Positions 19,053 through 56,696 of a stretch of 64,000 nucleotides of DNA are shown piece by piece. Source of the stretch: an uncultured delta proteobacterium (GTDB taxonomy: Bacteria; Desulfobacterota; Binatia; UBA9968); contig CAWDHA010000009.1 in the NCBI GenBank assembly GCA_963801935.1, positions 4,609 through 68,608 of the forward strand, read 5' to 3'. The notes below the pieces were generated by a model, which was not told where the DNA came from, made no database searches, and was given only the letters and a program-made list of their open reading frames with translations. Both the position numbers and the translations under genes were made by a program. How positions within the stretch are numbered: position 1 is the stretch's first letter; each line of letters starts with the position of its first letter.

Positions 19053-21111
19053 ATGGCAGATGGTCGTTTGCAGGAACGTTCACTTTTCGATCCTGAAATC
19101 ATGCGGCCGGCGATCCTCGAGAGCTTGCGCAAGCTCGCGCCGCGACATGTGATTAAAAATCCGGTCATGTTCGTGGTGGAGATCGGCAGCGTCTTGACGT
19201 CTTTGATATTGCTGCGCGATCTGGTTACGCCCGCGCCAACCTCGGAGCCGCTATGGTTTACGTTCAACGTCACTTTCTGGCTCTGGTTCACGGTGATCTT
19301 CGCAAATTTCGCCGAGGCAGTGGCCGAGGGTCGAGGTAAGGCACAGGCCGCAACTCTGCGGAAAATGCGCCAGGAAACCAGCGCGCGGCGGTTACGTCAA
19401 CGGCCAACGCGAAGAGACGGTCGCCGCGTCGTTGTTGCGCAAAGGCGATACAGTCGTCGTTGAAGCCGGCGAAGTGATCCCTGGCGACGGTGACGTTATT
19501 CAAGGCATCGCCTCGGTCGACGAATCCGCGATCACCGGCGAATCCGCGCCGGTGATTCGCGAGAGCGGCGGCGACCGTTCGGCCGTCACCGGCGGCACGA
19601 AAGTTTTGTCCGACCGAATCGTCGTGCGCATTACGGCGAGCCCCGGCGAGTCTTTCCTCGATCGCATGATCGCTCTGGTGGAAGGCGCGGCGCGGCAAAA
19701 AACCCCCAACGAAATCGCGCTGAATATTTTGCTCGCCGGCCTTACCCTGGTATTTCTCTTCGCCTGCGTGACTCTGGTGCCGATGGCGCTTTACTCGGGA
19801 GTTGCCGCCGTCTCGATAACGGTGATCGTCGCGTTGCTGGTATGTTTGATCCCGACGACGATTGGCGGACTCCTTTCAGCCATCGGTATTGCCGGCATCG
19901 ACCGCTTGCTCAGAAAAAATGTTCTGGCGATGAGCGGGCGCGCTGTCGAGGCGGCGGGTGACGTGGACACATTGCTACTGGATAAGACCGGCACGATTAC
20001 TCTGGGTAATCGTATGGCTACGGAATTCATTACGCTTAACGGAGAACGCCTGGCCGAGTTGGCCGATGCGGCGCAGCTCGCGAGCTTGGCGGACGAGACG
20101 CCCGAAGGCCGCTCCATCGTCGTTCTCGCCAAAGAGCAGTACAGCCTGCGCGCTCGCAAGGTCGAGCAACTCGGCGCGAAATTTATACCGTTCAGCGCTG
20201 AAACGCGGATGAGCGGCTGCGATCTCAATGGCCGGCTGATCCGCAAGGGCGCGGCTGACGCGATTATCCAGCACGTCAAAGCTCTCGGAGGAAGCGTCTC
20301 ATCCCAACTCGAAACCATCACCCAGCGGATCGGCGATAGCGGCGGCACGCCGCTCGCGGTCTCTGACGGCAATCGGATTCTCGGCGTCATTCACCTCAAA
20401 GACGTCGTCAAAGGCGGCATCAAAGAGCGTTTCGATCGCTTCCGCGCCATGGGCATTCGCACCGTCATGATCACCGGCGACAATCCACGCACCGCCGCGG
20501 CGATCGCGCGCGAAGCCGGTGTCGATGATTTCCTCGCTGAAGCGACCCCCGAAGCGAAGCTGCGCTTGATCAGAAATGAGCAGGCGAAAGGCAAGCTCGT
20601 GGCCATGACCGGCGATGGCACCAACGACGCGCCGGCGCTGGCGCAAGCGGACGTCGGCGTTGCCATGAACACTGGCACTCAGGCGGCCAAAGAGGCCGGC
20701 AATATGGTTGATTTGGATTCGAACCCGACCAAGCTTTTGGAGGTCGTCGAGATCGGCAAGCAGATGCTCATGACCCGTGGCGTCCTGACGACCTTCTCAA
20801 TCGCCAATGACGTGGCCAAATATTTCGCGATCATACCGGCGATGTTCATGGGCGTGTATCCGGAGATTGCGCCACTAAATATCATGCATCTGGCTTCGCC
20901 GCAGAGCGCGATTCTTTCGGCGGTGATCTTCAACGCCATCATTATCATCTTGCTTATTCCGCTGGCGCTCCGCGGTGTGCAGTATCGCCCGATCGGCGCC
21001 GGACCGTTGCTGGCGCGCTCTCTGCTGATTTACGGCGGCGGCGGAGTCGTAGCGCCGTTTGTCGGTATCAAACTGATCGACATGATTTTAGAAGCTGTCG
21101 GGCTGATATGA
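19053..21111 (+). CDS. kdpB: K+-transporting P-type ATPase subunit B, reading frame broken (+1) near 19392-19398
   Basis: The N-terminal 113 codons ([17 protein letters not shown]...[24 protein letters not shown]) are in one frame. The rest ([25 protein letters not shown]...DKTGTIT...[11 protein letters not shown]) continues one nucleotide downstream. Confidence 0.9.
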
Positions 21112-21135
21112 TGTTCTGTGCAAAAGGAGTTGGGC

Positions 21136-21262
21136 GTCTGTTCCGTCATTCCCGTACAGTTGGGAATCCAGAACCCCACTTGATCTCCCCGTTTGCTAAG
21201 GAAGGAGAAACAGAGAGGGTCGTATGAGCTGTCGCCGCGGCTGGGCCGGAATGACGACAGAC
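21136..21262. repeat. MITE-like element inserted between kdpB and kdpC
   Basis: Terminal inverted repeats GTCTGTTCCGTCATTCC (21136-21152) and GGAATGACGACAGAC (21248-21262). Internal hairpin ATTCCC/GGGAAT. It accounts for most of an unusual 189-nt kdpB-kdpC spacer. Confidence 0.6.
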
Positions 21263-21300
21263 TTCTGTGATGATGCTGAGGCCGATGATTAGGAGAAAAA

Positions 21301-21916
21301 ATGAACACGTTGATCATCGCGATTAGAGCGACCGTCGTTACGATTGTTTTAACCGGGCTCCTCTATCCATTTATAATGACGGGGTTGGCCCAGGTGCTCT
21401 TCCCCTGGAGAGCCAACGGCAGCCTTATGACGGATGAAAAAGGGCAAGTCGTTGGCTCCGAATTGATCGGCCAGGGGTTCGCCAATCCGGCCTATTTTCA
21501 GCCGAGACCGTCGGCGGCGGGCGAAAAAGGTTACGATTCGACCGCTTCGTCGGGCTCCAACCTCGGCCCGACGTCGAAGAAGTTGCAGGACCGAATCAAA
21601 GACGATCTCGCGCGGCTGAAAGAACAAAACCCTGCAAGCCACAGGTGAGGTCCCAGCGGAACTCGTTACCGCTTCGGCCAGCGGGCTCGATCCACATCTT
21701 TCACCGGAGGCGATGCTCTGGCAGTTGCCGCGGGTTGCGCAGGCACGCGCTGTCGCTCCCGAGCGCATCAAAGCCGCGGTCGATGCGCATATTGAAGGAC
21801 GAACTTTCGCCATACTAGGCGAGCGCAGGGTCAACGTGCTGCGGCTGAACCTGGCGCTCGATCGGCAATTCGGCCGGCCGGCGCCGCTGCCGGTTACAGA
21901 GAAAAAAACAACATAG
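21301..21916 (+). CDS. kdpC: K+-transporting ATPase subunit C, reading frame broken (+1) at an in-frame TGA (21646-21648)
   Basis: The N-terminal part (..LYPFIMTGLAQVLFPWRANGSL...SGSNLGPTS...LKEQNPASHR*) stops at 21648. The conserved EVPAELVTASASGLDPHLSPEAMLWQLPRVA...VNVLRLNLALD continues in the +1 frame to 21916. Confidence 0.88.
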
Positions 21917-21972
21917 ACGCCGCTGGATCTTTGAGCGCTGATGAATTAAAAGCCGCAGTTTTTTGCACGATC

Positions 21973-22230
21973 ATGGACCGGCTCACGATTTTTGGTTTGT
22001 TTGCGGTTACGGCAATGCTCGTTTGCTATGCGCTCGAGGATCGCAGTCATTGGTCTGTCCTGGGCTTCGCCCTGGCGTGCGCGCTGGGATCGGCGTACGG
22101 CTTTCTTCAGGGCGCCTGGCCCTTTGGCGCGATTGAGGCGATCTGGTCGCTCGTTGCCTTGGCGCGCTGGCGGAGAAAGATCCGACCGCTCCGCCCCTCC
22201 GAAAAGCAATCAACGGCTCGGATCAAATGA
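21973..22230 (+). CDS. Small hypothetical membrane protein (85 aa)
   Basis: MDRLTIFGLFAVTAMLVCYALEDRSHWSVLGFALACALGSAYGFLQGAWPFGAIEAIWSLVALARW... has 2-3 predicted TM helices and lies between kdpC and the kdpD-N gene. Confidence 0.5.
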   Translation: MDRLTIFGLFAVTAMLVCYALEDRSHWSVLGFALACALGSAYGFLQGAWPFGAIEAIWSLVALARWRRKIRPLRPSEKQSTARIK

Positions 22231-22258
22231 GAGACTTAATCGCGGAAAAAATACTCTG

Positions 22259-23416
22259 ATGGATGCGCCACGCAAACGGCCGGAGGATTTTCTCGAGCTG
22301 GTCGAACGCGCCAAGCGCGGCCGGCTCAAAGTTTACATCGGTTCTGCCGCCGGCGTCGGCAAGACCTACCAGATGCTCGAGGAGGCGCATGCCCTGAAAA
22401 AGCGCGCGGTCGATGTCGTATTGGCTTTCATCGAGCCGCACGACCGGCTCGAGACCGCGGCGTTGATCGAGGGGCTCGAGGTGATACCGCGCCAGCGCCT
22501 TGAGTACAGAGGCGTCATCGTGGAAGAGATGGACCTGGATGCCGTTCTCAAGAGACGGCCGCAGGTCGCGGTGGTCGATGAATTGGCGCATACCAACGCG
22601 CCGTTCTGCCGCAATAAAAAGCGTTATCAGGACGTGCTCGAACTGCTCGATGGCGGCATCAATGTGATCTGCGCTTTCAACGTGCAGCACCTCGAAAGCC
22701 TGAACGAGATGGTGAAACAGGCGACCGCAGTGATCGTCCGAGAAACCGTGCCTGACTCGATTCTCAAAAGAGCAGATCAGGTGGTCGATATCGATTTGGC
22801 CGTTGAGGATCTTATCGATCGGTTAAGGGCCGGGAAGATCTATGCGCCGGATAAAGTGCCTTGGGCGCTCGAGAATTTTTTTCAGCCGGAAAAGTTGGCG
22901 GTGCTGAGAGAAATCGCGCTTCGGGAAGTCGCCGAAAGCGTCGACCGCGCGGTCTCGGCCAATGGCGCCGCCAATGATGCCGCGCGCAGGGCGGCGGCGA
23001 GCGAACGGGTCATGGTGTGTCTGCCGACGCGCCAGCCGCCGCACGGCGCTATGCTGCTCCGACAGGGATCGCGTTTGGCCGGCAGGCTGAACACCGATTG
23101 GTTTGTCGTCCATATAGAAACCAAACAGGAAGCCAACCATCGCATCGACTCGACCTTGCAGCGCCATCTCTTGGAAGACGAACAACGGGCGCGCGATCTC
23201 GGCGCTGAAGTCGTGCGCCTGCGCTCGGAAAAGCCAGTGGAAGCGCTGCTGGATTTCGCTCGCGCCCACGGCGTTCGCCATATCGTCGTCGGGCGCTCGC
23301 ACAAACCCTGGTGGCGGCGCCTGTTGGGACAAACGCCCATATACAAGTTAGTGACGCAAGCTTCCGGTTTCGATCTTCACATCGTCTCCTTGGAAGATCG
23401 GGAGAACAAGGAATGA
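22259..23416 (+). CDS. kdpD: KdpD N-terminal sensor domain + USP domain protein (no kinase core)
   Basis: VYIGSAAGVGKTYQMLEEA...VVDELAHTN...INVICAFNVQHLESLN is the KdpD N-domain, followed by a universal-stress-protein-like domain. ATG 22259; the listed ORF starts further upstream at 21992. Confidence 0.85.
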   Translation: MDAPRKRPEDFLELVERAKRGRLKVYIGSAAGVGKTYQMLEEAHALKKRAVDVVLAFIEPHDRLETAALIEGLEVIPRQRLEYRGVIVEEMDLDAVLKRRPQVAVVDELAHTNAPFCRNKKRYQDVLELLDGGINVICAFNVQHLESLNEMVKQATAVIVRETVPDSILKRADQVVDIDLAVEDLIDRLRAGKIYAPDKVPWALENFFQPEKLAVLREIALREVAESVDRAVSANGAANDAARRAAASERVMVCLPTRQPPHGAMLLRQGSRLAGRLNTDWFVVHIETKQEANHRIDSTLQRHLLEDEQRARDLGAEVVRLRSEKPVEALLDFARAHGVRHIVVGRSHKPWWRRLLGQTPIYKLVTQASGFDLHIVSLEDRENKE

Positions 23417-26109: not shown

Positions 26110-27598
26110 ATGAGAATCAATATGAGAAGGTGGTTTGTTACAAAGCTGTTCACTACGGTCGTGTGTTGTTTTTACTGGTTAGACGGCCGCACCGCGGCGG
26201 CCGCTGAAGGGGACAAACCGCTTGAGCTTCCCGGTGACATTTCGCCTCGATTTGAATTATGTTCATAACCAGCAGGCATTGCCCGGCTCGTTGACCCTTT
26301 CAGAGTTCAAGGATAAGCCGCGCCAGCGAAATCCCAGCGCCACTTTTGCCGGCGAGCGCCATGACTACGATTATGTCAGGAGCGCGTTCACCGTTCGCAC
26401 GCCGCTTACGGCCACGCAAGCTCTTGAGTGGGGCACGCAATACAACTACACCGATCTTGACCATCCTTTGGCCTTCGCCGTCATCGATAACGTCGACAAC
26501 AATTGGGGAACCGAAGTTCGTTACATCCTCACGGCGCAACTCTTCGAGTACGGTAATCGGTTTACTTTCGGCTTCCAATACGCCGGCACTCGGCAGACCG
26601 ATTTTAACTTTGCCAACGCCGGGGATGGCAAGCGTGGTCCTAAGAGCAAAAATCAAATCAACAAGGCTTACAATATCGGCGTGTATTTCGAAGACCAGTT
26701 CGATGTCACGCCCGCTCTTACCGTGGTCGGCGGCGGCCGCCTGCAGCACGCAGAGCGCTCCGTCGGCGATCGCTTTTTGGCCAACGGCGATGCTACCGAC
26801 TCGGTCAATTTGTTTGCGTTTCACGCCCAGAGCCGGACTCATCTGGAAAGTCACTCCGCAATCCAACTCTACGGCAACGCCAGCCGTTCTTATGAAGCGC
26901 CGCTCCTCCTGGAACTTGCCGCTCCAGGCCAGATCGGCGGAGATTTGAGCCAGTTGGACCTCAGAAAGCCTGGCAGTTTCGAACTCGGGACGCGCGGCGC
27001 CCTGGTTGAGCGACTGCTTTGGGATTTTTCAGTTTTCGATATCGAACTCAGGGACGAAATTCGAAACGTCAATGTCCGACCGTTTCCTGGAGCACCTTTT
27101 ACGATACCGCGCTTTCTAAACGTCAAGCGCTCGCGTCACTGGGGAGCGGAGCTGGGCTTTGATTTGCTAATGCTCAAGGATATCGCTCAACCGGACGATT
27201 CGATCCGGTTCATTACCGCTTATACTTTCTCGCGCTTTGTTTTTATCGATGACCCAATTCACGGTGACAACGATCTTCCAGGAGCACCGCGACATTACTT
27301 TAGATCGGAAGCTCGCTACCGCCATTCTTCAGGAGTGTGGCTCGCACCCGGCATTGAATCCGTTCCCAAGGGATACTTTGTCAATAGCGAAAACACCGTG
27401 AAGACAGCCGCGTATACTTTGTTCAACGTTCACGCTGGATACCCATACCAGCCGTGGAACTTGGAGCTCTTACTCGAAGCCAGAAATTTGGCCGATAAGA
27501 ACTATGTCTCGGCGGTGTCTGTCGATACTGCTGACAACCGGTTCTTTCAGCCAGGCGATGGCCGGAGCTTTTATGGAGCGGTGCGCTGGAAGTGGTGA
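26110..27598 (+). pseudogene. TonB-dependent receptor remnant (signal peptide plus C-terminal ~450 aa of barrel; plug and first strands missing)
   Basis: 26110/26122 encodes M(RIN)MRRWFVTKLFTTVVCCFYWLDGRTAAAAEGDKPLELP..., which runs into a stop at 26266-26268. The barrel ORF (26222-27598) is in the +1 frame and ends with the typical ...GRSFYGAVRWKW. No plug or TonB box is present. Confidence 0.6.
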
Positions 27599-27659: not shown

Positions 27660-28476
27660 ATGAAATCGCTATTAACGGCTCTCGTGATGTTTTGTTTGGT
27701 AATGATTGAAGCTCGTTGGAGCATGGCTCATGACGGTTGGGTCGAAGTCTCGAGTGTCGTCGAGAGCGGCCAGCCGGTTAACGATTTCACTTATGCTCGG
27801 CAACCATTCCAATGAACACAAGAGCTACCGGCTCGCCGGCAAATGGAATCCCAAATTCACCAAGCTGGTGGTGATCGAACCGTCGGGGAACTTAAACGAC
27901 CTCAGCAGCGCCCTTGTCGATCTTGGCGAGGATCCGGAGAAAACCGGGCCGAAAGGGCCCAAGGGCTTTCACATCGCGGCGTTTACGCCGAAAGAACAAG
28001 GCGTGCACATTGTAGTGGCGCGCCAGGAAGAAGTGGCGCAGCACGGCGACGGACCTAGATTCCGCGGCGTACGGAGCGCGCGCGCCGCTTTCACGGCCCT
28101 GGCTACGCCGACGGTCGCCGAGGCAAAGAAATCTTCCGGCTTCAGCCGCACCGTCGACATCGAAAACCTGATGGAGATTGTGCCGGTGAGTAATCCGCTC
28201 GGCGTGACGCAGAATGCTCGGGTGAGCTTCCAGGTCCGTTACAAGGGGAATGGTTTTCCCAGTCAGAACGTGACCCTGGTCAGGCGCCTTGCGGGTCCGG
28301 CTGGGGTACAGGAATTGACCACCGACGAAAAGGGGCAAGTGAGTTTTAGCGCGGGGCCGGCCGACACCTACTTGATACGGGTCAAATTCGAAGAACGTAA
28401 TGAACGAAGTGAAGGCCAATACGACTTGAGCGCTTATGAGGCAACCTATGTTTTCCAGGTCTTTAATGCGCTTTAG
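27660..28476 (+). CDS. DUF4198-like periplasmic metal-uptake-associated protein, frame broken (+1) near 27779
   Basis: ATG 27660 after AGGAGG gives MKSLLTALVMFCLVMIEARWSMAHDGWVEVSSVVESGQPV. The family pattern continues in the +1 frame as TISLMLGNHSNEH..., with a C-terminal transthyretin-like module (TTDEKGQVSFSAGPADTYLIRV). Confidence 0.65.
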
Positions 28477-28826: not shown

Positions 28827-30135
28827 TTGTTCACTGTAGCGGCCATCGTCGCCGCCATGAGCTATCTTGTCCTGGCGCTGCTAGTCGGAGCGTTGGTAAC
28901 GAGCGCTTTCCTCCTCGACGGCGATGAGCCTCAAGTCCTGCGCCGCAGGCTCGCCGGCATGGTGCTGGCGCTTGTGTGCGCTTTCCTGGCCGTCCATCTG
29001 ATCGCGCTGATCGTTCAGGGAGCGAAGCTGAGCGGCGGCCATTGGCCGGCGCCGAGTCTTTTAACGCGTTACGCCTGGCGCACACAAAGCGGCCAGATCT
29101 GGTTGCTGCGCGCGCTCTATGGCGTGATATTTTTGCTCTTAACGGTACGCTGGCTCCGGCGCGGCGCCGGCACTCTAGGCTTACTGCTTTTTTCGCTGCC
29201 GCTGGCGGCGAGTCGCAGTTTGAGCGGCCACGCGATTGCCGTTAGAGATAATACCTTCCTGGTAGTTGCGGCGGACTCTATTCATTTGATTGCGACCGCT
29301 TGCTGGGCTGGAGGGTTGCCGTTTCTAGTGTATTTGCTGATGGCGGATTTTGCCGCCGCGAAACCCTACCCAAAGATGGCTGCCCTAGCCGTCAAACGAT
29401 TCTCGCGCCTGGCTGGTCTGAGTGTAGCGATGCTTCTGGCCACGGGTGCCTACCAGACCTGGACGCACGTGGGTCGCTTGGACGCTCTCACTTCCACGAC
29501 CTATGGAAACATACTGATCCTGAAGCTTAGCCTGTTTGCTTGCATGTTGGTTTTCGGAGGGATCAATTTTTTATTTACCAGGGTTGCCTTGCTACGCCAC
29601 AGCGCAGCGAGCTTGCCGCAAAGCTTTCGCACAACTGCCGTGCGCCGCGTTGGGGCTGAAAGCCTCTTGGGAGTCGCGATCATCATCCTCACCGGTTTTC
29701 TTACGGGCTTAGCGCCGGCCGCGCACAGCGATCACGCCAAGGCGGTTGCAGCGAGTGGCGCATCCCAGGGGCCGAAGATCCATAAAGATAACCGCCATGG
29801 CGCGCGCGCCGCGCCGGCTGAATTCAAGCCGGCCGATGGCGCCAGGGTTAAAATTGTTTCGCCCAGACCGGGGGCAAACGTACAGGGAGGATCGGGTGCC
29901 GATCCAGTTCAACCTCACCCAGCAGAAAGGCAATCACTACCATGTGCACGCTTATGTCGATGACCAGCTGATCGGAATGTTCGAAAGCGAGACAGGAACC
30001 CTGACTGGTATTGCGCCGGGGAAGCACGTTTTAAGACTACGGATCGTCGAAGCCGATCACACCACCGAACTCGATGCCGCCGACGAGGTCGAGTTCACAG
30101 TGACAACGGCAATACCCGAAGAGAAAGGACCGTGA
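28827..30135 (+). CDS. copD: CopD-family membrane protein fused to a C-terminal His-rich beta-sandwich-like domain, frame broken (+1) near 29890
   Basis: TTG 28827 follows GAGGAG. Eight or so TM helices of CopD type. The tail ...PADGARVKIVSPRPGANVQG continues in the +1 frame as DRVPIQFNLTQQKGNHYHVHAYVDDQLIGMFESETGTLTGIAPGKHVLRLRIVEADH (DUF4399-like pattern). Confidence 0.7.
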
Positions 30136-32959: not shown

Positions 32960-33317
32960 TCACGCGGGTGACGGGCCTGAAGTTATCGGGATGGCAGATA
33001 AAGCCCGTGACCAGGAAGTGTGCTGGATGTCGGCATTGTCGATGTAGCCGGAAATCCTTTTTGGCTAGCCCGCGCTGTTATAGGTATAAGTGACGGTCTC
33101 TCCGTCGGGGAAGGTTTCCAACGTTATCCGATTCAGCGTGTCTGGAGTCTGCGACATTGTATAGGGGACACCCATCAAGATACGTGATGCCTGGGTCGTC
33201 CTCTCCATCGCATCGTAAGTGAATTTCCTCGTTGTGTTGGTCGGTCTCAAGGACGGTTGTGAGCCGGCCCTTGGCAAATGGCGACACAGTTGACGCACTC
33301 GGACGCTGTGACGCGAA
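32960..33317 (-). pseudogene. RHS/YD-repeat protein remnant
   Basis: YD-repeat strings GRLTTVLETDQHNEE, then (+1 frame) FTYDAMERTTQAS...ETFPDGETVTYTYNSAG, then an in-frame TAG. There is no start and no core or toxin domain. More AT-rich than its surroundings. Confidence 0.5.
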
Positions 33318-33389
33318 TCAAAACGTCTTGAACGGTTGCAGCGATTGGAAACGGGAGCCCAGCGACAATCGCGGGAAGCGCAACGATAT

Positions 33390-34721
33390 TTAGTCAAGCA
33401 GCATCACGCGCAGATCCATGACATTGGTGAACGTTGGGCCGACAACCAGCAAGTCTCCCAAGCGTTCAAAGAAATGATACGAGTCGTTGTCGCGGAGATA
33501 GACTTCGGCATCGAGCCCTAACCGCTGCGCGCGGCTAAGAGTGGTTCCGTCAGCGAGTGCGCCGGCGGCGTCCGTCGGACCATCGCTACCATCGGTGCCG
33601 CCGCTCAAGATGACCACCCCGCCGATACCGCTAATCTGAACGGCCGCCGCCAGAGCGAATTCTTGGTTGCGGCCACCCAGGCCTGAGCCGCGCACGGTGA
33701 CGGTAGTTTCACCGCCCGAAAGCACGCACGCGGGCCTTTCAACGGGGTTGCCGGTTGCGCTGATTTCTTTCGCGACCGCGGCGTGCAGCGCCGCGACCAC
33801 CGTGGTTTCCCCTTCGATAAAGCTCGACAGCAGCAGGCTCTTATAACCCAACGCCGCCGCGCTTCGCGATGCCGCTTCCAACGTCAGGCGGTTGCTGCCG
33901 ACGATGACGTTCTGAACCTCAGCAAAAACCCGATCGCCCGCTTTCGGCGTCTCCGCCAGCGCGCCGCTGGCGCCGCTTTGAAGCAAATTCCAAACCGCCG
34001 GCGGAATGCGCGTTTTAATGCCGTATTTTTTAATAATCCTCAAGCACTCGGCAAAAGTCGTCGAATCCGGAGCGGTAGGACCCGAGGCGATGCCGTCGAT
34101 TGGGTCGCCGACAACGTCGGAAAGCACCAGTGAAATCACCGTCGCCGGGAAAGCCAAGCTCGCCAGGCGCCCGCCTTTGACTTTTGAGATATGTTTCCTG
34201 ATCGCGTTGATTTCGCCGATCGCGGCGCCGCAGGCGAGCAGGGCCTCGGTAGTCTGGCACTTTTCAGCAAGCGTGATTCCGTCCGCCGGATAAGGCAGCA
34301 AGGCCGAGCCACCGCCGGAGATCAGACAAAAAATCAGATCGCTGTCACCGGCCGCTTGCGCCAGCTCAACCATCGCATGCGCGCCGTCATATCCGGCCTG
34401 GTCCGGCAAAGGATGGCCGGCTTCATTAACGGTAATGGCGCGCAAAGGCACGGCAGAGCCGCGCTTGACGTTTATCACTCCGCCGCTGATTCTGTTTAGC
34501 AACAACCCTTCCAGAGCCTGGGCCATGCGCGCAGATGCTTTGCCCGCGCCAAGGATGATGACGCGCCGGTAGCGGTCGAGGTCGTAGTCCTTGCCGGCGA
34601 CGCGCAGAATTTGCCGGTCAATGCTCACATGGCGCTCGACGGCAAGAAAGGAATCCGCCGCCGCAACTCCGGCGTCAAAGATCGCTCTCGCATCGCGCCG
34701 CAACTGTGCAAGCGAACGCAT
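33390..34721 (-). CDS. Glycerate 2-kinase / hydroxypyruvate reductase-like (DUF4147 + MOFRL)
   Basis: 443 aa with the typical segments ...VIILGAGKASARMAQALE... and the C-terminal MOFRL pattern ...LSGGTDGSDGPTDAAGA...NDSYHFF..TGPTFTNVMDL. Confidence 0.85.
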   Translation of the reverse strand: MRSLAQLRRDARAIFDAGVAAADSFLAVERHVSIDRQILRVAGKDYDLDRYRRVIILGAGKASARMAQALEGLLLNRISGGVINVKRGSAVPLRAITVNEAGHPLPDQAGYDGAHAMVELAQAAGDSDLIFCLISGGGSALLPYPADGITLAEKCQTTEALLACGAAIGEINAIRKHISKVKGGRLASLAFPATVISLVLSDVVGDPIDGIASGPTAPDSTTFAECLRIIKKYGIKTRIPPAVWNLLQSGASGALAETPKAGDRVFAEVQNVIVGSNRLTLEAASRSAAALGYKSLLLSSFIEGETTVVAALHAAVAKEISATGNPVERPACVLSGGETTVTVRGSGLGGRNQEFALAAAVQISGIGGVVILSGGTDGSDGPTDAAGALADGTTLSRAQRLGLDAEVYLRDNDSYHFFERLGDLLVVGPTFTNVMDLRVMLLD

Positions 34722-37124: not shown

Positions 37125-40041
37125 ATGGTGACTGTAAGACGCGCAACGTTCCGGCCAGTCATTTTCATCTTCGCGATTATACTTTTCACCTATACCGCGC
37201 TTTTGTCGATCGTCAATTTGCCAAGCTTCCAGGATTGGCTTAAGGCTCACCTGGCAAAACAAACCGGTTATGATCTCGCCGGCCGGTTGCGGCTCGATGC
37301 GCTGCTGCGTCTGAACCTGAGCGGCGTGACGGCTTCCAAAGGTTCCAAGCCCGTGCTGCAGGCGGAGCGCATTCTGATCGTCATCACTCCCCTCGGCTTC
37401 TTTTCGAAAACCATCCATCGCCTGCGACTCGAAAAGCCGACTCTCTATCTGGAGCTTGATGAGTTGATGAAGCAGAGCGCCGCGCCGGTTTCGAGCATTA
37501 GCTTGCGCCATCTGAATGTCGAAGACTGCACGCTCGTCTTGAACCTGGGGAGTGGCAGCCCGCTTTTTTTCAAGTCATTGGCCATGAACGCTCAGCATTT
37601 GAATCTCGGGCAGGCAACCGGCTTAAATCTCCGCACCGAGGTTCCGTGGCTCGAGGGCGTTGTCGAAGTGATCGTCAATGGTTCTGCAAACGACAAAATC
37701 GCGCGGCTTCGAGTCGAGCAGCAAGGTTCTCGGCCGGTCGCCGCCGGCGCCTCCGGGACAGTTGCGCCCGCGGCGCTTGAAGCCGAAATCACCGTCAGCA
37801 GCAAAGCGGATAGCTCTCTCGGCGTTGTTGCCACGGGCAAATTAAACCGGATGGCCGTCGGCGACGAACGCTTCAGCGGTCAGTTCGAGAGCCGCGCCAC
37901 CCTCGGCGCAAATCATCAGCAAGCCGACATCGACGCCAGCTTCGTCGCCACCGAACTGCCCTCACAAATGGATTTTTTACCTATCGCTCTGCCCAAGGGT
38001 ACAAGCACGGGCGTTTTGGCCGGCAATTTTTCACTAGGCTCAAAAAAAATTAGCACTGCGATCGTTTAGTTTTCAGTCCCCGCTGGGCGATGCCAACGGC
38101 ACCGCCGCAGTGGCTTTTACACCCGAGATCGCTGTCTCCGACAGCAAAGTAGCGCTCCGGAAAGTGCCGCTGCAGCCGTTAAGATTTTTATTTCCCGGCG
38201 CGCTGAGCGGGTTTGCATTCGATGGCGTCCTCGAGGCCGATTTAGAGCTTAGCGGACCATGGCGTACGATGACAGTTTACGGCATCGTCCGCGGTTCGCC
38301 CATCCAACTGCGCAGCGAACACTTGTCCTTGGCTGCGCTCAGCTTCAAAACTTCGATAGCATGGGCCAACTCCCGGTTTCGCGCCGGCGATGTGCAAATC
38401 ACTGGAAAAGACCTGCTGGCCCGGCAAAAAAGCGCGCTGCCGCTCGCAGCTGAAGAGCTGCGCATTAGTGGAATTTTGGAAGGAAGCGCGGACGCGCCGC
38501 TCAAGGCCGCCGGCCAAATCCGCGTTCATCGAGGCCGATTCGCCGCGCTCGATGGCACGCGCGTCGGCGAGAACCTGGCCCTTGCCGGTCGTTTTGAAAC
38601 GAGCATCGGCCAGGACACCGGGGATAGCGCCATGTCCGGCAACTTGGTCATCGAACAGGGCGAAGTACTCTGGGGAAAATTCTTCGGCGACTTGAGAGCG
38701 GAGCGACCTAGCTTGCAATTCGCCGGCGATTATTTTGCCGGCGCGGCTCGGCTGCGTTTGCGCGAGTTGGTTATCACGCTCGCGAGTGTCGGTAAGATCG
38801 CGGCGCGCGGCACCGTCGAACAAACCTTCAAAGATCCCCTGCTTCGCCTGGAAATCAACAGCGATAACATTCAGCCCGCGGGATTTTTTGAATTCTTCGT
38901 TCGCCCGACTTTGAATCGAAGCTTCCCGGTGCTCGATCAGCTGGCGCTCGGCGGCCGGCTCGGCTTTGCCGTGAAAGCCGACGGCACCTTCGATCATCTC
39001 ACCGTCGCCGGCGCCCTGCGGCTGCGCGGCGGCACAGTTCAAAACCAGTCCAAGAAATGGCAGGTGGGACCGATCGAGCTCGACCTGCCGTTCCACCTTC
39101 AGTACCCTGGAGCGAGCGCGACACCGTTGCCTGAAGATGTGCCGGCCGGCAGTTTGACGATTGCCACGGCGCGTTTGGGCGCGGAGGTGATGCCATCGAC
39201 AAGGACCGCGTTAGCTCTGTGGAACAACGCGCTGAGCTTTCGCCAACCGCTTCGTTTTTCGATCTACGGCGGCGTCTTGGAAATTTCTGAACTGGCATTC
39301 AAGGACGTCATTGCAGTTCCGCAGGCGCTCTCGCTCGCGCTCGATGCCAAGAACCTGCAGCTGGAGAGACTCACCGAAGCTCTGGGGTGGTATCGTTTCG
39401 CCGGTACGCTGTCCGGTTCTATACCCAAGGTCGAGTGGGACGGTGGTTCTTTGCGCAGTCCAGGTCGGATTCAAGCAGAGGTATTCGGTGGCCAGGTAGA
39501 GATCAGCAAACTCGAAATCGAAAGCCCGCTTTCGCCGGTTCCGTCCATCAAGCTGGATGCGCGTTTTCGAGATATCAGTTTGGCAAAGGCATCGGAGACT
39601 TTTGCCTTCGGGCAAATCACCGGCATTTTGGCAGGCAGCGTGAATGAACTCGTAATGACAGCCGGTCAACCCGCGCAGTTTCGCGCCGACCTCAACAGTG
39701 TCGAAAGACGCGGTGTCAGCCAGCGCATTAGCGTTGAGTCTTTGAACAAAATCACCGTGCTGAGTTCAGGCAGCGATGCCGGCGTTCTCTACGGCGGTAT
39801 CGCCAGCCTCTTCGATAGTTTTCGTTACAGCAAACTTGGCTTCAAAGCGCTGTTAAAAAATGACAAGCTCACCTTGCGCGGCGTCGAGAGCCGTAAAGAC
39901 GGTGAATACATCGTCGTCGGCAGCTTGATTCCGCCCACGGTGAACGTCGTGAGCCACACGCAAACCGTGGCCTTTTCCGAGCTGCTGCGGCGACTCGAGC
40001 GCATACAAAACTCGCCAAAGGCAGACAAGCCCGCGCATTAG
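37125..40041 (+). CDS. YdbH-like (AsmA-superfamily) envelope protein, frame broken (+1) between 38042 and 38069
   Basis: N-terminal TM anchor and a long beta-rich repetitive body. The C-terminal YdbH-type region is ...GVSQRISVESLNKITVLSS...KLTLRGVESRKDGEYIVVG. It is followed by a DUF1318/YdbL-like gene as in ydbH-ynbE-ydbL. Two ORFs (37125-38069, 38110-40041) overlap around an A8 run. Confidence 0.7.
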
Positions 40042-45654: not shown

Positions 45655-47229
45655 ATGGCACAAACGGCAAAGCGCGACGGCGCCGCCCCTGAAGAAGTCA
45701 GGGACCTCAGAAACGCAATCGAGTGGATGAAAAAAGAAGGCGACATTCTGATCACCGATAAAGAAGTCGATCCCGACCTGGAAATCACCGGCATTCAGAA
45801 AAAACTCGATGGCGGCTGTCCGATACTCTTCAACAACGTCAAGGACAAACCCCAGCACCGTGCCATTACCAATCTGTTCGGCGACATGAACGTCATTAAC
45901 AAGATGTTCGGTTGGAAAGATCACGCTGATCGCACGCGCAAACTGGCCTACGCCATCACCCATCCGCTAGCGCCGACCGTCGTCGATCAGAAGGACGCGC
46001 CGGTCCAGGAAGAAGTCTTTGAAAAACCGGCCGAGGCCAATGATTATGTTATTCCGATCCGCCATACCGACGTCGAACCCGAACTGACGGTCGGTTCCGG
46101 CAACCGTTTGGTAGCCGGCGAGTATTTCAACGAGGGCACCGACCTCGGCTACAACCGCATGAACTTTCGCTGGGGCAATGTCGGCACTTTTCAGATCTCC
46201 CCGGGCTCGCACATGTGGCAGGTGGTGAGCAAGTACTATAAGGATAACAAGCTCGTCCCCATCACCATGAACTTCGGTCTGCCGCCGGCTGGTTCGCTGC
46301 TCGCCGGCGCCGGTTTCGATTACGTCATCTTGCCGCAGGGCTGCGATGAAGTTGGTATCGCGGGCGCGGTGCAGGGCGCGCCGATGCGCATGGTTAAGGC
46401 GCGCACGATCGACGCCTATGCTCTGGCCGATGCCGAAGTGGTGCTCGAAGGTTACGTCAACCCGCGGGACCGCCGATTTGAAACGGCGGAGTCCGAAAAA
46501 GCCGGCATCCAGGGCCGTTTTCACTTCCATCCGGAGTGGGCGGGCTATATGGGCAAAGCCTACAAGGCGCCCACGTTCCACGTCACGGCCGTCACCACCC
46601 GCCGGCGCGAATCCAAGCCGATCATCTTTCCGCTCGGCGTTCATACCCTTGACGATCACAACATCGATACCACCGTGCGCGAAGCCGCGATGTTCGAGCT
46701 CTGTGAGAGAATGCAGCCGGGCATCATCATGGATGTTAACATCCCCTACTGCATGACGGACTGGGGCGGCGCGATCATTCAGGTCAAAAAGCGCAACCGA
46801 ATCGAAGAAGGCTGGCAGCGCAATTTTATGGCGGCGATTCTCGCCACCTCCCAGGGATCGCGAATCGTTGTCGCCGTCAGCGAAGATGCCGATCCCTATG
46901 ACATGGACGACGTCATGTGGTGTCTGACCACCCGGGTGAATCCCAAAACCGATATCATCAACCCGCTGCCGGGCGGACGCGGTCAAACCTTTATGCCCGC
47001 AGAACGCATGACCGCCGGCGAGCGCGAGTGGACCGCATCCAATACGATGTTTGAAGGCGGCATGGGCATCGATGCTACCGTGCCCTTCGGTTACGAGAGC
47101 GACTTCATGCGCCCGGTCTATCCCGTGGACAGCGTTGATCTCAAGAAGTGGTTCACGGACAAAGATATTCAGAACGCGAAGTCTCGGATGCAGGGATGGG
47201 TGCATTCTTTGGCGCGCACCGGGAGATAA
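45655..47229 (+). CDS. UbiD-family (prenyl-FMN-dependent type) decarboxylase, paralogue 1
   Basis: 524 aa, intact, with GGGAGGG as RBS. The overall UbiD layout is shared with the ORFs at 55274 and 60879. Confidence 0.75.
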   Translation: MAQTAKRDGAAPEEVRDLRNAIEWMKKEGDILITDKEVDPDLEITGIQKKLDGGCPILFNNVKDKPQHRAITNLFGDMNVINKMFGWKDHADRTRKLAYAITHPLAPTVVDQKDAPVQEEVFEKPAEANDYVIPIRHTDVEPELTVGSGNRLVAGEYFNEGTDLGYNRMNFRWGNVGTFQISPGSHMWQVVSKYYKDNKLVPITMNFGLPPAGSLLAGAGFDYVILPQGCDEVGIAGAVQGAPMRMVKARTIDAYALADAEVVLEGYVNPRDRRFETAESEKAGIQGRFHFHPEWAGYMGKAYKAPTFHVTAVTTRRRESKPIIFPLGVHTLDDHNIDTTVREAAMFELCERMQPGIIMDVNIPYCMTDWGGAIIQVKKRNRIEEGWQRNFMAAILATSQGSRIVVAVSEDADPYDMDDVMWCLTTRVNPKTDIINPLPGGRGQTFMPAERMTAGEREWTASNTMFEGGMGIDATVPFGYESDFMRPVYPVDSVDLKKWFTDKDIQNAKSRMQGWVHSLARTGR

Positions 47230-48707: not shown

Positions 48708-49182
48708 ATGAGCCCGCTAAAGGCATTATCCTTGTCCGCCAAGACGCTCGAGGACATTTCGCAGCACGCGCAAGAGAGCTATCCCGATGAGTGCTGCGGC
48801 GTCATTTTCTCCGACGGCATCGTCGATTATGCGCAACGGCTGAGCAACATTCAAAACAAGCTGCACGCCCTTGACCCGGTCACTTATCCACGCACGGCAG
48901 TGATCGCTTATGCCATGGATCCGAGAGAGCTCGAGCAAGCGATCGGTGTGGCCGAGAACGCCGGCGCTAAACTCAAATCATTTTATCACTCCCATCCCAA
49001 TCACGACGCTTACTTCTCAGACGAGGACAAGGCTTTCGCCAGCCCCTTCGGCGAGCCTAGCTTTCCCGGCGCTGCAGCAAATCGTCGTGTCGATTTACGA
49101 CGGCGCCATCAGACGGATTTGCGCCTACGAGTGGTCCGACCGGGCCGGTGATTTCGTCGAGATCATAGTTAAGAAAGTCTAG
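48708..49182 (+). CDS. JAMM/MPN+ metalloprotease-family protein, frame broken (+1) near 49072-49078
   Basis: ECCG...YHSHPNHDAYFSDEDK (E...HxHx7Sx2D JAMM motif). The C-terminal strand pattern QIVVSIYDGAIRRICAYEW...FVEIIV is found in the +1 frame, ending at 49182. Confidence 0.75.
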
Positions 49183-49185: not shown

Positions 49186-50062
49186 GTGTCTTCGCCACAA
49201 CACAGAACCAGCGATGCTGGAGGCCTGCCCATTCATTATTTGCAATGGGGCGAGCCCTCTGGAGAACCGATCGTGCTCGTGCACGGTTTTCTAGATCTGG
49301 CGCACAGCTGGCAAGCTTTCGTCGATCGCTTCGAGAAAACCCAAGAACAGCAGCCCTGGATCGTCGCGCCCGATTGTCGCGGGCACGGCGATAGCGGCTG
49401 GGTGGGCGCCGGCGGCTATTACCACTTTCCGGATTACGTTTTCGATCTCGATTGCGTGCTTCAGACGCTTGGTGCGGCGCGCTGCACGCTTATCGGCCAC
49501 TCCATGGGCGGCACTATCTCTTGGCTTTATGCCGGCGCGTTTCCCGAGCGCGTCAGCAAGCTCGTGCTCATCGAAGGCGTCGGCCCGCCGGGCATGGAGG
49601 TTTCCGACGCGCCACTGCGCATGATGACGTGGATCTCGGAAGTCAGGCAGCGCGGGCGCAATCACTTTCGCCAGTACACAAGCGTCGAAGCCGGCGCGCG
49701 CCAGTTGCAACAGACCAATCCCAGGTTAACCGAAGCCGCCGCTTTAGACCTGGCGCGCGCCGGCATGAAACAGGATCGGTCGGGAAAGTGGCTGTGGAAG
49801 TTCGATCCGCTGCATCGCACTGCGGCGCCGCAGCCTTTCTACACCGCCCAGGCTCTGGAATTTCTGCGCCGGCTGCGGTGTCCGGTTCTGATCGTCGACG
49901 GCGCACAAAGCCAGCAACGCCAGCGCGCCGACAAACAGCAACGCTACGACGCGATCGCGCACCGCGAACAGGTCATTGTCGAATGACGCCGGCCATATGG
50001 TCCACCAGGATAATCCTGAAATGCTGGCCCAGGCGATCGCGGCATTTTTTGCCAAGCGCTGA
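49186..50062 (+). CDS. Alpha/beta hydrolase, frame broken (+1) at an in-frame TGA (49984-49986)
   Basis: HGF oxyanion region and nucleophile elbow GHSMGG. The ORF stops at ...EQVIVE*. The catalytic-His segment DAGHMVHQDNPEMLAQAIAAFFAKR follows in the +1 frame, ending at 50062. Confidence 0.8.
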
Positions 50063-53825: not shown

Positions 53826-53949
53826 CTATAGACTGCTGAAAAAGACTCAAATCGATTTCGCGTCAACGTACGATTTGCCAAGCGCAAAGCGTTCTAGCTC
53901 CTGACGCTATGCGCCTTGCTCTCTGCGCCATGCGCTTTCGCGCGCCTTG

Positions 53950-55114
<1,165 letters not shown>

Positions 55115-55233
55115 TACAGTTGCTCGCCTCTGAGATCTTTTTGGCAGTCTGCGAAGGGCCTCCGCGCCCAGATTCTTCGGCGGAGTTTAACCTGAGTATA
55201 CCGAAGGGCTTCATCAGAATGACATCCGTGTCT

Positions 55234-55258
55234 GAGATTCGAAATTTGAGATTCCGAG
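55234..55258. repeat. AT-rich leader repeat (AATTTGAGATTCCGAG), copy upstream of ubiD paralogue 2
   Basis: Shares AATTTGAGATT and ATTCCGAG with 4037-4058. Both lie 15-30 nt upstream of a start codon, followed by CGAGGA. Confidence 0.5.
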
Positions 55259-55273
55259 TGAAACGAGGAGCCG

Positions 55274-56696
55274 ATGCCCTTCAATGACTTGCGATCCTTC
55301 ATAGCCGGTGCCGAGCGCATCGGCGAGCTCAAAGTCATCGAGGGCGCCGATTGGGATCTCGAAATCGGCTGCATCACCGAGTTAATGGCGGAACAGGAAG
55401 GACCGCTGCTGCTATTCGATAGTATTCCCGGCTACCCGAAAGGTTTCCGCATCGCCGTTAACGTGCTCGCCACGGCACGGCGTTTCGCTCTGGCTCTCGG
55501 CCTGCCGACGGATGCGCCCAAGTTAGAGATTCTGAAAACCTGGCGCAGTAAGATTCGCGATCTAAAACCGTTCGCTCCCGTGGAAGTCGCCTCGGGACCG
55601 ATTACCGAGAATGTGCTCCAGGGCGAAAGCGTCGATCTCGATATTTTTCCGACGCCCAAATGGCATGAGCGTGACGGCGGTCGCTACATCGGCACCGGTG
55701 ACATGGTGGTCATCAAAGATCCCGAGAGCGAGTGGATCAACGTTGGCACCTATCGCTCGTGCATCGTCGCCAAGGACCGCGTGACGCTTTGGATCATCGA
55801 CCACAAACACGGTAAACAGCTCGCGCGCAAGTACTGGGAAGCGGGCCGAGCATGCCCGGTCGCGATTGTTCTCGGCTGCGAGCCGGCCACCTGGATGGCT
55901 GCGCCGTCCGCCGCCAAAGCCGGCATCAGTGAGTACGAGTATGCCGGAGCTTTGCGCGGTGCGCCGCTGGAGGTTGTACGCACCCCTGTGATGGGCCTGC
56001 CGGTTCCAGCGACTTCAGAGATCGTTATCGAAGGCGAGATGCCGCCGCCCGAACAGGAGTCGCACAAGGAAGGGCCTTTCGGCGAGTGGCCCGGCTACTA
56101 TACCCACAGCGGCGAGGAATGCGTCGTGCGCGTGCAACGCATCCTGCATCGCAATCATCCCATCCTGCTCGGCAATCCGCCGTTGTTGCCGATCACCGAA
56201 CGCTACGGCATTCCGCTCTACGCGGCGCGTATCTGGGATCACCTGGAGCAATCCGGCATCGCCGGCATTCGGCGGCGTCTGGTGCCACTGCCATACTTTG
56301 ATGGTGGTGATTTGCTTAAAGCAAGCTTACTCCGGCCATGCGATGCAGGCGCTCACCGCCGTCGCCGGCATGGTAACCGGCGCAAGCATGTACCGTTACT
56401 ATATCGCGGTCGATGACGACATCGATCCGGTTGAGTTAAAGCAAGTTATCTGGGCCATGTGCACGCGCGTGGACCCCGCCGAGTCGGTGCAGATCTTAAA
56501 GTCATGGACTTCTGATCTAGACCCGCGACTGCCGCCGGAGCGGCGCGACAAAGGCGATTTCACCATGAGCCGGATGTTGATCGACGCGTGCAAGCCTTTT
56601 CACTGGCGCGATCAGTTTGCGCTGGCGAACAAATTTAGCCCGGAGATGAGAGACAAAATTTGGGAAAAGTGGGCGCCTAAACTGCAACTCAAGTGA
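55274..56696 (+). CDS. UbiD-family decarboxylase, paralogue 2, frame broken (+1) near 56270-56273
   Basis: ...WDHLEQSGIAGIR in one frame, then GVWCHCHTLMVVICLKQAYSGHAMQAL...DDDIDPVELKQVIWAMCTRVDP in the +1 frame. Together they give a full-length UbiD layout. Confidence 0.8.

What the first reader, a model, noticed from the sequence alone, without database searches (positions are those of the whole stretch)
19053..56696. Every detectable reading-frame break (10 genes plus one gene remnant) goes in the same +1 direction
In each case, family-typical sequence resumes in the frame one nucleotide downstream.
- kdpB: ...ETSARRL | [17 protein letters not shown], about 19392-19398.
- kdpC: ...KEQNPASHR | EVPAELVTASASGLDPH, 21646.
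- Outer-membrane receptor: signal-peptide frame versus barrel frame, somewhere in 26183-26268.
- DUF4198-like: ...AHDGWVEVSSVVESGQPV | TISLMLGNHSNEH, about 27779.
- copD tail: ...VKIVSPRPGANVQG | DRVPIQFNLTQQKGNHYHVH, about 29890.
- ydbH-like: 38042-38069.
- JAMM: ...GEPSFPGA | QQIVVSIYDGAIRR, about 49072-49078.
- Alpha/beta hydrolase: ...EQVIVE | DAGHMVHQDNPE, 49984.
- IS110 transposase: ...RTFYRR | [20 protein letters not shown], 54985.
- ubiD paralogue 2: ...SGIAGIR | GVWCHCHTLMVVICLKQAYSGHA, about 56270-56273.
- Minus-strand YD-repeat remnant: about 33222.

I found no -1 break. If direction were random, the chance that 10 agree is 2 x 0.5^10, about 0.002. The breaks are absent from the first 19 kb (ccm, clpB and dnaK blocks) and from the 3.4-kb speE-like ORF. 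They concentrate in transport and accessory genes.

The most economical explanation is single-base insertion errors in the assembly, because several sites lie in 2-8 nt homopolymers. The alternatives are genuine insertional pseudogenisation or +1 recoding.
Basis: partly seen in the sequence, partly recalled or inferred. Interest (0 to 1): 0.65.

Follow-up and report, generated by a model that had tools for sequence, protein, structure and literature searches.

The report
Mostly long-read assembly insertion errors
Nine genes in this stretch of an uncultured soil bacterium's genome are each broken by one extra base, but most of those bases are missing from a second assembly of the same species, so they look like sequencing-assembly errors, not biology.

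Summary
Nine genes (kdpB, kdpC, DUF4198, copD, ydbH-like, JAMM, alpha/beta hydrolase, IS110 transposase, ubiD paralogue 2) each carry one extra base that moves the frame by +1. I found no -1 break.

Two of the eleven claims fail. The outer-membrane receptor is a barrel-only fragment with no plug domain, not a point frameshift. The YD-remnant break cannot be verified.

The window comes from a Candidatus Binatia genome whose nearest relatives are Nanopore-only metagenome-assembled genomes (MAGs).
- A second assembly of the same species (96.7-99.8% identical) lacks the extra base at kdpB, kdpC, copD, ydbH, JAMM, hydrolase and ubiD2.
- That assembly has 84 private single-base insertions of its own. 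They split dnaK, ccmF, ccmH, clpB, kdpA and the histidine kinase, all intact in the window.
- Twenty-five long-read MAG loci from related and more distant lineages carry 73 "+1" and 30 "-1" breaks. Fifty-three other, mostly short-read, loci carry almost none.

So +1 bias is the technical baseline, and 9 of 9 has p of about 0.05-0.13, not 0.002.

Programmed recoding is excluded. Only the DUF4198 break, the plug-less receptor and perhaps the copD G5 run recur across assemblies. These may be real pseudogenes in one accessory island.

The parts
19395..19397 (+). kdpB: one extra base (window TTACGTCAAC; sister assembly TTACG-CAAC; relatives TTG-GTCAAC). Frame 0 to 1.
   Evidence: Thirty-one related loci span the site with net +1. 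The sister assembly lacks the base.
21634..21635 (+). kdpC: one extra base in CCT[G/C]CAAGCC. Frame 1 to 2. The TGA at 21646 is only the first out-of-frame stop.
   Evidence: Ten relatives and the sister assembly (KdpC called intact at 204 aa) lack the base.
26183..27598 (+). TonB-dependent receptor beta-barrel fragment with no plug or N-terminal region. It is a truncated gene, not a point frameshift.
   Evidence: Pfam barrel positions 14-436 only. Homologues L080 and L082 have about 236-290 further N-terminal residues, absent from the whole window. No similarity to the upstream signal-like ORF. Same structure in the sister assembly.
27779..27780 (+). DUF4198 gene: one extra base in GTT[A]ACG. 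Frame 0 to 1. Shared by all available assemblies, so probably a genuine frameshift.
   Evidence: 100 homologues give net +1. The sequence is identical in the sister assembly. The same 248-aa truncated gene call appears on three Logan contigs. Eight other GTTAAC sites are in frame or intergenic.
29870..29874 (+). copD: G5 run where the sister assembly has G4 and an intact 435-aa CopD. Frame 0 to 1.
   Evidence: and 42/46. The window-type 378-aa truncated call is also on two Logan contigs.
38036..38037 (+). ydbH-like (AsmA/DUF-type, about 971 aa): extra G (CTAGGCT versus CTAGCT), just before an A8 run that both assemblies share. Frame 0 to 1.
   Evidence: homologues of 965-973 aa at about 100% coverage; sister assembly intact at 972 aa.
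49074..49074 (+). JAMM/Prok-JAB gene: extra G (GCT[G]CAG). Frame 0 to 1.
   Evidence: gap-free alignment to PDB 2kcq across the junction. (sister assembly lacks the base; single HSP over residues 1-167).
49981..49981 (+). Alpha/beta hydrolase: extra G (GTC[G]AAT). Frame 1 to 2. The true junction reads ...VIV-NDAGH...
   Evidence: repaired protein matches Abhydrolase_1 positions 2-245 of 245. (sister assembly lacks the base; single HSP over residues 1-291).
53948..55122 (+). IS110-family insertion sequence (1,175 nt), absent from the sister assembly. Its transposase has one extra base near 54985. Frame 1 to 2.
   Evidence: There is no second copy to compare the break with.
56270..56270 (+). ubiD paralogue 2: extra C (ATT[C]GGC). 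Frame 2 to 0.
   Evidence: UbiD_C positions 7-127 after repair; sister assembly lacks this base but has three errors of its own in the gene.
33065..33403 (-). Short RHS/YD-repeat remnant. The claimed internal frame break is not verifiable.
   Evidence: one RHS repeat in one frame, nothing in the other. Identical in the sister assembly.

Best explanation
The window is part of a 206.8-kb contig of an uncultured Candidatus Binatia bacterium. By inference it comes from a Nanopore-only metagenome assembly of the Microflora Danica type (metaFlye plus one round of Medaka, no short-read polishing).

Six of its nine single-base +1 breaks are private consensus insertion errors: kdpB, kdpC, ydbH, JAMM, hydrolase and ubiD2. 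The IS110 break probably is too.

They all point the same way because the residual error process of this kind of assembly is insertion-biased, not because of any biology.

A minority of lesions recur in independent assemblies and are probably genuine decay of one strain-specific metal-uptake island at 25.3-30.1 kb:
- the plug-less TonB receptor;
- the DUF4198 frameshift;
- possibly a polymorphic G4/G5 slip in copD.

Shown: the breaks, their exact sites, their absence from the sister assembly, and the insertion bias in sibling assemblies.

Inferred: the sequencing platform of the window, and which software step adds the bases.
For: 1. Lineage. The best relatives of the window's histidine kinase are Binatia and 'delta proteobacterium' MFD MAGs. 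That catalogue was built with Flye plus one Medaka round from Nanopore reads only (PMC12313526).

2. Control in other loci. Twenty-five MFD loci (512 kb) carry 103 homologue-supported frame breaks: 73 '+1' and 30 '-1'. Fifty-three other, mostly short-read, loci (729 kb) give only 16 flags, mostly gene-fusion or boundary effects.

3. Sister assembly. ENA ERZ25039494 contigs 111927 and 68124 are collinear with window 1591-62880 at 96.7-99.8% identity. They lack the window's extra base at 19397, 21634, 29874, 38037, 49074, 49981 and 56270.

4. The sister assembly's own errors. It has 84 private single extra bases. They split dnaK into four ORFs and also break ccmF, ccmH, clpB, kdpA, kdpB, kdpD-N and the kinase, all of which are intact in the window.

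5. Matching error signature. Insertions are mostly not homopolymer extensions: 28 of 84 in the sister assembly and 2 of 7 in the window.

6. No sign of age. Each broken gene has exactly one lesion, and the sequence downstream stays highly conserved. For example, KdpB downstream of the break is 95% identical to L001.

7. The broken 115-aa KdpC product is on no other contig on record.

8. Published context. In a soil ONT dataset assembled with metaFlye, only 56.8% of predicted proteins reach 90% or more of their best match's length (PMC13087279).
Against: - I could not see reads, and the window's own record is masked. Its platform is therefore inferred, not shown.
- The two assemblies are different strains (0.2-3.3% divergence). 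Absence of a break in one does not strictly prove an error in the other.
- The window's nine breaks avoid the first 19 kb and the last 7 kb (p of about 0.04 and 0.008 under uniform placement, chosen post hoc). This also fits selection sparing essential genes.
- The DUF4198 and copD breaks recur in other assemblies, so at least some breaks are in the reads.
- The cause of the insertion bias is not established.
Confidence: 0.85

Rival explanations
1. All the breaks are genuine, recent, insertion-type frameshift mutations. On this view a Binatia strain is losing accessory transport and metabolic genes, perhaps under an insertion-biased mutational process.
For: - Breaks fall in kdp, cop, ubiD-paralogue, IS and hydrolase genes and spare ccm, clpB and dnaK.
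- DUF4198 and the receptor truncation recur in independent assemblies. The copD G5 form recurs in two Logan contigs.
Against: - Seven of the eight comparable breaks are absent from a 96.7-99.8% identical assembly.
- That assembly shows the same kind of lesion at far higher density in dnaK, ccmF and clpB, which cannot be biological.
- From general knowledge, bacterial indel spectra are deletion-biased and centred on homopolymers. These are insertions, mostly outside runs.
- No broken gene has a second lesion.
Confidence: 0.08
2. The breaks are sites of programmed +1 ribosomal frameshifting or other recoding, and the genes are expressed at full length.
For: - The direction is uniformly +1.
- At kdpC and the hydrolase the 0-frame ends in TGA close to the junction, which looks superficially like prfB.
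Against: - The true insertion points are 3-12 nt upstream of those TGAs.
- The nine sites share no motif.
- No relative and no sister assembly has a break at any of the private sites.
- Breaks at other, random positions occur in sibling assemblies.
Confidence: 0.01
3. The breaks are homopolymer slippage sites (A8 in ydbH, G5 in copD). They would be either phase-variable contingency loci or sites rescued by transcriptional slippage.
For: - copD differs as G4 versus G5 between assemblies, and the G5 form recurs in two Logan contigs.
- An A8 run lies 3 nt from the ydbH break.
Against: - Both assemblies have A8. The ydbH difference is a G upstream of the run.
- Only two of the seven pinned sites touch any run, and the runs are short.
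- G5 is short for efficient slippage (general knowledge).
Confidence: 0.04

Closest known systems
Indel-driven frameshifts and truncated proteins in long-read (Nanopore) genome and metagenome assemblies. This is the IDEEL-type problem targeted by frameshift-correction tools such as proovframe.
   Same: - Single-base indels split otherwise conserved genes.
- The lesions are private to one assembly.
- Their density varies between assemblies of the same organism.
- Soil ONT assemblies are known to be badly affected (PMC13087279; proovframe preprint 10.1101/2021.08.23.457338, listed; PMC12313526).
   Different: Here the errors are strongly insertion-biased and mostly outside homopolymers. The classic description stresses homopolymer deletions. 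I did not find this bias described in the papers I opened.
Apparent frameshifts created by collapsing alleles or strains into one consensus (for example the Trypanosoma brucei allele-specific assembly, PMC8445201, abstract seen).
   Same: Some window insertions look like both alleles of a polymorphism kept side by side: kdpB CGC/GTC to CGTC, kdpC CAA/GAA to GCAA, ydbH CTA/CTG to CTAGG.
   Different: This is untested here. Only 34 of 84 sister-assembly insertions have a mismatch within five columns. I read only that paper's abstract.
Programmed +1 ribosomal frameshifting as in prfB (RF2).
   Same: The +1 direction. A 0-frame UGA lies soon after two of the junctions.
   Different: There is no conserved shift site and no conservation of the break in any relative. 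The insertion points do not coincide with the stop codons.
Pseudogene accumulation in decaying accessory islands.
   Same: A plug-less TonB receptor, a frameshifted DUF4198 partner gene and a polymorphic copD frameshift lie together in a 4.9-kb island. That island is absent from other Binatia at this locus, and the lesions recur across assemblies.
   Different: This covers only 2-3 of the 11 claimed lesions. The sequencing platform behind the confirming Logan contigs is unknown.

Membership tests
Assembly consensus error (technical artefact) | The lesion is absent from an independent assembly of the same species. | tested here: met
   Seven of eight comparable breaks are absent from ERZ25039494 contigs at 96.7-99.8% identity. 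DUF4198 is the exception.
Assembly consensus error (technical artefact) | Assemblies of the same type show the same kind of lesion at unrelated positions, including in indispensable genes. | tested here: met
   The sister assembly has dnaK in four ORFs and broken ccmF, ccmH, clpB and kinase genes. There are 103 breaks in 25 MFD loci against roughly none in 53 other, mostly short-read, loci.
Assembly consensus error (technical artefact) | Raw reads do not support the extra base. | not testable with these tools
   No read data are available, and the window's source record is masked from look-ups.
Programmed +1 ribosomal frameshift (prfB-like recoding) | The frameshift site is conserved in orthologues of related genomes. 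| tested here: not met
   Thirty-one (kdpB) and 42 (kdpC) related loci, and the sister assembly, read straight through. The same holds for JAMM, the hydrolase and ubiD2 in L087.
Programmed +1 ribosomal frameshift (prfB-like recoding) | A shared slippery or hungry-codon motif lies at the shift point. | tested here: not met
   The nine contexts share no motif. The TGA codons near kdpC and the hydrolase lie 3-12 nt after the true insertion.
Genuine pseudogene | The lesion is reproducible in independent assemblies or samples. | tested here: inconclusive
   - Met for DUF4198 (five assemblies) and the plug-less receptor (two).
- Partly met for copD (window plus two Logan contigs; intact in the sister assembly).
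- Not met for kdpB, kdpC, ydbH, JAMM, hydrolase and ubiD2.

Genuine pseudogene | Secondary decay: further stops or indels, or relaxed conservation downstream of the first lesion. | tested here: not met
   A one-base deletion restores a full-length, family-typical ORF in all nine genes.
Homopolymer slippage (phase variation or transcriptional slippage) | The length change lies inside a long mononucleotide run. | tested here: not met
   The ydbH change is outside the A8 run. Only copD (G4/G5) and ydbH (G/GG) touch any run.

The most novel reading that the evidence does not exclude
The private +1 insertions are real. They would reflect an insertion-biased mutational process or relaxed selection in a natural Binatia population, so that closely related strains each carry many different single-base insertions. 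A weaker version holds that the 25.3-30.1 kb metal-uptake island is being inactivated stepwise in the wild: receptor plug deletion, DUF4198 +1, and a polymorphic copD G-run slip.
Probability: 0.05. Interest if true: 0.5.

Novelty: not a real feature. Interest (0 to 1): 0.08.

Why it matters
It matters mainly as a caution. Long-read-only MAGs now serve as species representatives for thousands of uncultured lineages. In the loci examined here they carry frequent, insertion-biased single-base errors, about one per 6 kb in this window and locally as dense as one per few hundred bases in the sister assembly.

These errors can mimic pseudogenisation or recoding. They also produce truncated or fused proteins that end up in public protein databases.

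A uniform frameshift direction should be tested against the technology's own bias, not against 50:50.

The only likely biology here is modest: a decaying TonB-receptor/DUF4198/CopCD island in one Binatia species.

Tried and rejected
- prfB-like reading of 'AGG TGA G' (kdpC) and 'GAA TGA C' (hydrolase). Rejected because alignment to relatives and to the sister assembly puts the inserted base 3-12 nt upstream.
- Candidate -1 breaks. kdpD-N/kinase (21950-23416 and 23209-25275) and UbiD3/GGT (60879-62678 and 62629-63981) are separate genes.
- Possible hidden break in the UbiD3 tail at 61037. The window's tail is protein-like and the sister assembly's tail is out-of-frame, so the error is a deletion in the sister assembly.
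- Systematic basecalling error at the GTTAAC palindrome, proposed for DUF4198. Eight other GTTAAC sites show no break.
- Codon-periodicity HMM census. It was too crude: many real genes were scored non-coding. I used it only as a guide.
- Look-ups of the window's own record or identical proteins. Searches found nothing, because the source is masked.
- The listing of cluster members. Six of its ten slots were wasted because I trimmed the stop codon at the wrong end of minus-strand references.
- Concatenated repaired-protein search. It returned only odd fusion proteins and was uninformative.
- Search with a 'repaired' DUF4198 protein. Its identities and coverages are void. I re-used only the 120 real database proteins it returned, in a valid tblastn against the window.
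- Supplementary tables of the MFD paper, to identify ERZ25039494 and the ERR runs. They are not held.
- Rfam scan of the window. No hits.
Full report
QUESTION AND SHORT ANSWER

I confirm nine of the eleven as single-base +1 breaks and find no -1 break. Most of them are private to this assembly. The one-sided direction is the normal signature of the kind of assembly this window appears to come from.

SITE-BY-SITE CHECK

Three-frame translations show frame n to n+1 at all ten plus-strand sites.

- kdpB and kdpC. Pfam places KdpC profile positions 3-106 in one frame and 107-181 in the next. Thirty-one related loci (kdpB) and 42 (kdpC) align across the junctions with a net +1 and no residue missing. 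DNA alignment puts the extra base at 19395-19397 in kdpB.
- DUF4198. The homologues' sequence ...AHDGWIEV...GQPVTIALMLGNH... is reproduced exactly if one base of GTTAACG is removed. Of 120 database homologues, 101 split across two frames, 100 of them with net +1.
- Proteins repaired by deleting one base:
  - The hydrolase reaches Abhydrolase_1 positions 2-245 of 245, and ubiD2 reaches UbiD_C positions 7-127 of 127.
  - The IS110 transposase aligns without gaps to IS621/ISCro4 over residues 6-303.
  - The JAMM protein aligns without gaps to PDB 2kcq over residues 23-157.
  - The ydbH-like protein (971 aa) matches homologues of 965-973 aa at about 100% coverage.
- copD and ydbH. The sister assembly pins the sites to the G5 run at 29870-29874 and to an extra G at 38036/7. 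These are not about 29890 and not inside the A8 run.

Two claims fail.

- Outer-membrane receptor. Homologues have about 236-290 residues (signal peptide, N-terminal extension, plug) before the point where similarity to the window begins at 26240. No plug sequence exists anywhere in the window. The upstream signal-like ORF has no similarity to their N-terminus. It is a barrel-only fragment, so a frame 'direction' has no meaning here.
- YD remnant. It has one RHS repeat above Pfam's cut-off, in one frame, and nothing in the other.

CENSUS FOR -1 BREAKS

- I scanned every large ORF against Pfam.
- The two suspicious same-strand ORF pairs are separate genes: the KdpD N-terminal sensor next to a HAMP/PAS kinase, and UbiD3 next to GGT.
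- Every single-base difference from the sister assembly that lies in a window gene falls into one of two classes. It is one of the nine known breaks, or it sits in a gene whose window version is full-length and family-typical.
- No -1 break is detectable in the window.

WHERE THE WINDOW COMES FROM

- A scan with the histidine kinase found only Candidatus Binatia and 'delta proteobacterium' MAGs. The best was 83% identical, and many hits were Microflora Danica (MFD) isolates.
- That catalogue was assembled from Nanopore reads with Flye and one round of Medaka, without short-read polishing (PMC12313526).
- Several of the window's exact proteins are on record from one 206,833-nt contig in NCBI and ENA. 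That record is masked from look-ups, so the platform of the window itself is inferred, not shown.

CONTROL 1: SIBLING LOCI

I chained tblastn hits of long ORFs from all 78 fetched loci against each other. I kept breaks supported by at least three other loci.

| Locus set | Total length | Supported breaks |
|---|---|---|
| 25 MFD loci | 512 kb | 103 (73 '+1', 30 '-1') |
| 53 other, mostly short-read, loci | 729 kb | 16 flags, mostly fusion or boundary effects |

Individual MFD loci range from 20:1 (L063) and 11:3 (L020) to 4:6 (L001).

Frequent and mostly +1 breaks are therefore a property of these assemblies. Against that baseline, 9 of 9 has p = 0.045 (at 71% +1) to 0.13 (at 80% +1), not 0.002.

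CONTROL 2: A SISTER ASSEMBLY OF THE SAME SPECIES

A 972-aa intact YdbH-like protein shares a cluster with the window's 590-aa fragment. It led to ENA ERZ25039494 contig_111927, and further look-ups led to contig_68124.

- Together the two contigs are collinear with window 1591-62880 at 96.7-99.8% identity.
- They lack the window's extra base at 19397, 21634, 29874, 38037, 49074, 49981 and 56270.
- KdpC (204 aa), CopD (435 aa) and YdbH (972 aa) are called intact there. The hydrolase and JAMM genes align as single full-length HSPs.
- They carry 84 private single extra bases of their own, against 31 positions where the window has the extra base. Seven of those 31 are the window's known breaks.
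- In the sister assembly dnaK is split into four ORFs. ccmF, ccmH, clpB, kdpA, kdpB, kdpD-N and the kinase are also broken, and all of these are intact in the window.
- No organism carries dnaK, clpB and ccmF in pieces, so these must be errors. They are the same kind of lesion as in the window: single-base insertions, two-thirds of them outside homopolymers (28 of 84 extend a run; 2 of 7 in the window).
- The sister assembly also has a few deletions, for example in ubiD2 and the UbiD3 tail. Its bias is about 80% insertions, not 100%.

LESIONS THAT MAY BE REAL

- The DUF4198 break is base-for-base identical in the sister assembly.
- Three Logan contigs with an identical CopC give the same truncated 248-aa DUF4198 call.
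- The break lies in a GTTAAC palindrome, but eight other GTTAAC sites in the window are unbroken. A motif-specific basecalling error is therefore unlikely.
- The plug-less receptor next to it has the same structure in both assemblies.
- The copD G5 form (378-aa call) recurs on two Logan contigs, while the sister assembly has G4 and an intact gene.
- These three genes lie together in a 4.9-kb island (25.3-30.1 kb). Other Binatia lack it between the kinase and the sigma-54 regulator.
- I read this as probable genuine decay of one accessory island. The caveat is that I could not establish the sequencing platform of the Logan runs.

RIVAL EXPLANATIONS

- Programmed +1 frameshifting is excluded. 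No relative or sister assembly shares any private break. The nine contexts have no common motif. The TGA codons that looked prfB-like are only the first out-of-frame stops.
- Wholesale genuine pseudogenisation is unlikely for three reasons:
  - It would require closely related strains to carry dozens of different single-base insertions, including in dnaK and clpB.
  - Each broken window gene has exactly one lesion, with well-conserved sequence downstream.
  - From general knowledge, bacterial indel spectra are deletion-biased and run-centred.
- Homopolymer slippage could apply only to copD.

WHAT REMAINS UNEXPLAINED

- I do not know why these consensus errors are insertion-biased. Some sites look as if both alleles of a polymorphism were retained: CGC/GTC to CGTC in kdpB, CAA/GAA to GCAA in kdpC. 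However, only 34 of 84 sister-assembly insertions have a mismatch within five columns. I offer this only as a hypothesis.
- The window's breaks avoid the first 19 kb and the last 7 kb (p of about 0.04 and 0.008, chosen post hoc). The sister assembly is riddled with breaks in the first 19 kb. A read-depth and heterogeneity profile is needed to explain this.

ERRORS OF MINE

- The query was correct only for its first 70 residues, so its statistics are void.
- Six of the ten slots used wrong minus-strand coordinates.
- Neither result is used as evidence.

VERDICT

The pattern is real in the sequence but is overwhelmingly technical: a long-read consensus artefact with a built-in +1 bias. It is overlaid on two or three probably genuine lesions in one decaying island. 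Biological interest is low. The practical lesson is to test frameshift direction against the platform's own bias and against a second assembly.

Noticed in passing
window 53948-55122: A 1,175-nt IS110-family element is present in the window but absent from the sister assembly, so it is an insertion polymorphism. About 210 nt of non-coding leader (53948-54159) precede the transposase, which is where IS110/IS621 elements encode a bridge RNA. Rfam found nothing.
   Followed up: partly
window 22247-25275 and 30151-31524; loci L001-L013: Kdp regulation is split in this lineage. A KdpD N-terminal sensor plus Usp protein without a kinase domain is followed by a separate 4HB/HAMP/PAS histidine kinase. 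In relatives a convergent sigma-54 response regulator comes immediately next. In this species a 4.9-kb TonB-barrel/DUF4198/CopC/CopD island is inserted between kinase and regulator.
   Followed up: partly
L081:1-1422 and L082:959-3188 (JGI contigs Ga0114129_10092397, Ga0075433_10017269): The homologous TonB-dependent receptor in two JGI metagenome contigs from different samples has a +1 frame break at the same place (after ...YNYTDLDHPL). This looks like a genuine frameshift in another lineage.
   Followed up: no
window 37748-37763: Three single-base differences within 16 nt distinguish the window from the sister assembly inside the ydbH-like gene. The net difference is 3 nt, so the frame is kept (971 versus 972 aa). 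Seven clustered substitutions lie at 37557-37641. Which assembly is right is undetermined.
   Followed up: no
window 45655-47229, 55274-56696, 60879-62474: Three divergent UbiD-family decarboxylase paralogues lie within 17 kb. They are interleaved with NMT1/TctC-type solute-binding proteins, a PqqC-like/haem-oxygenase-like protein, a cupin and a dienelactone hydrolase. This may be an aromatic-acid decarboxylation cluster.
   Followed up: no
window 41887-45333 (-): A 1,148-aa single ORF fuses an MFS transporter-like region, a spermidine-synthase-like domain and TPR repeats. It is intact in both assemblies.
   Followed up: no
proteins P0094-P0100: The public protein collection holds KdpC fused to KdpB or KdpD fragments from ENA long-read assemblies. 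These are probably products of the same frameshift-error problem that have propagated into databases.
   Followed up: no
window 15543-16262 (-) versus 15574-16113 (+): The longest ORF here, on the minus strand (239 aa, no Pfam hit), overlaps a plus-strand ORF at the position where the sister assembly calls a 148-aa thioredoxin gene. It is therefore probably an antisense shadow. I did not scan the window's plus-strand ORF against Pfam.
   Followed up: partly
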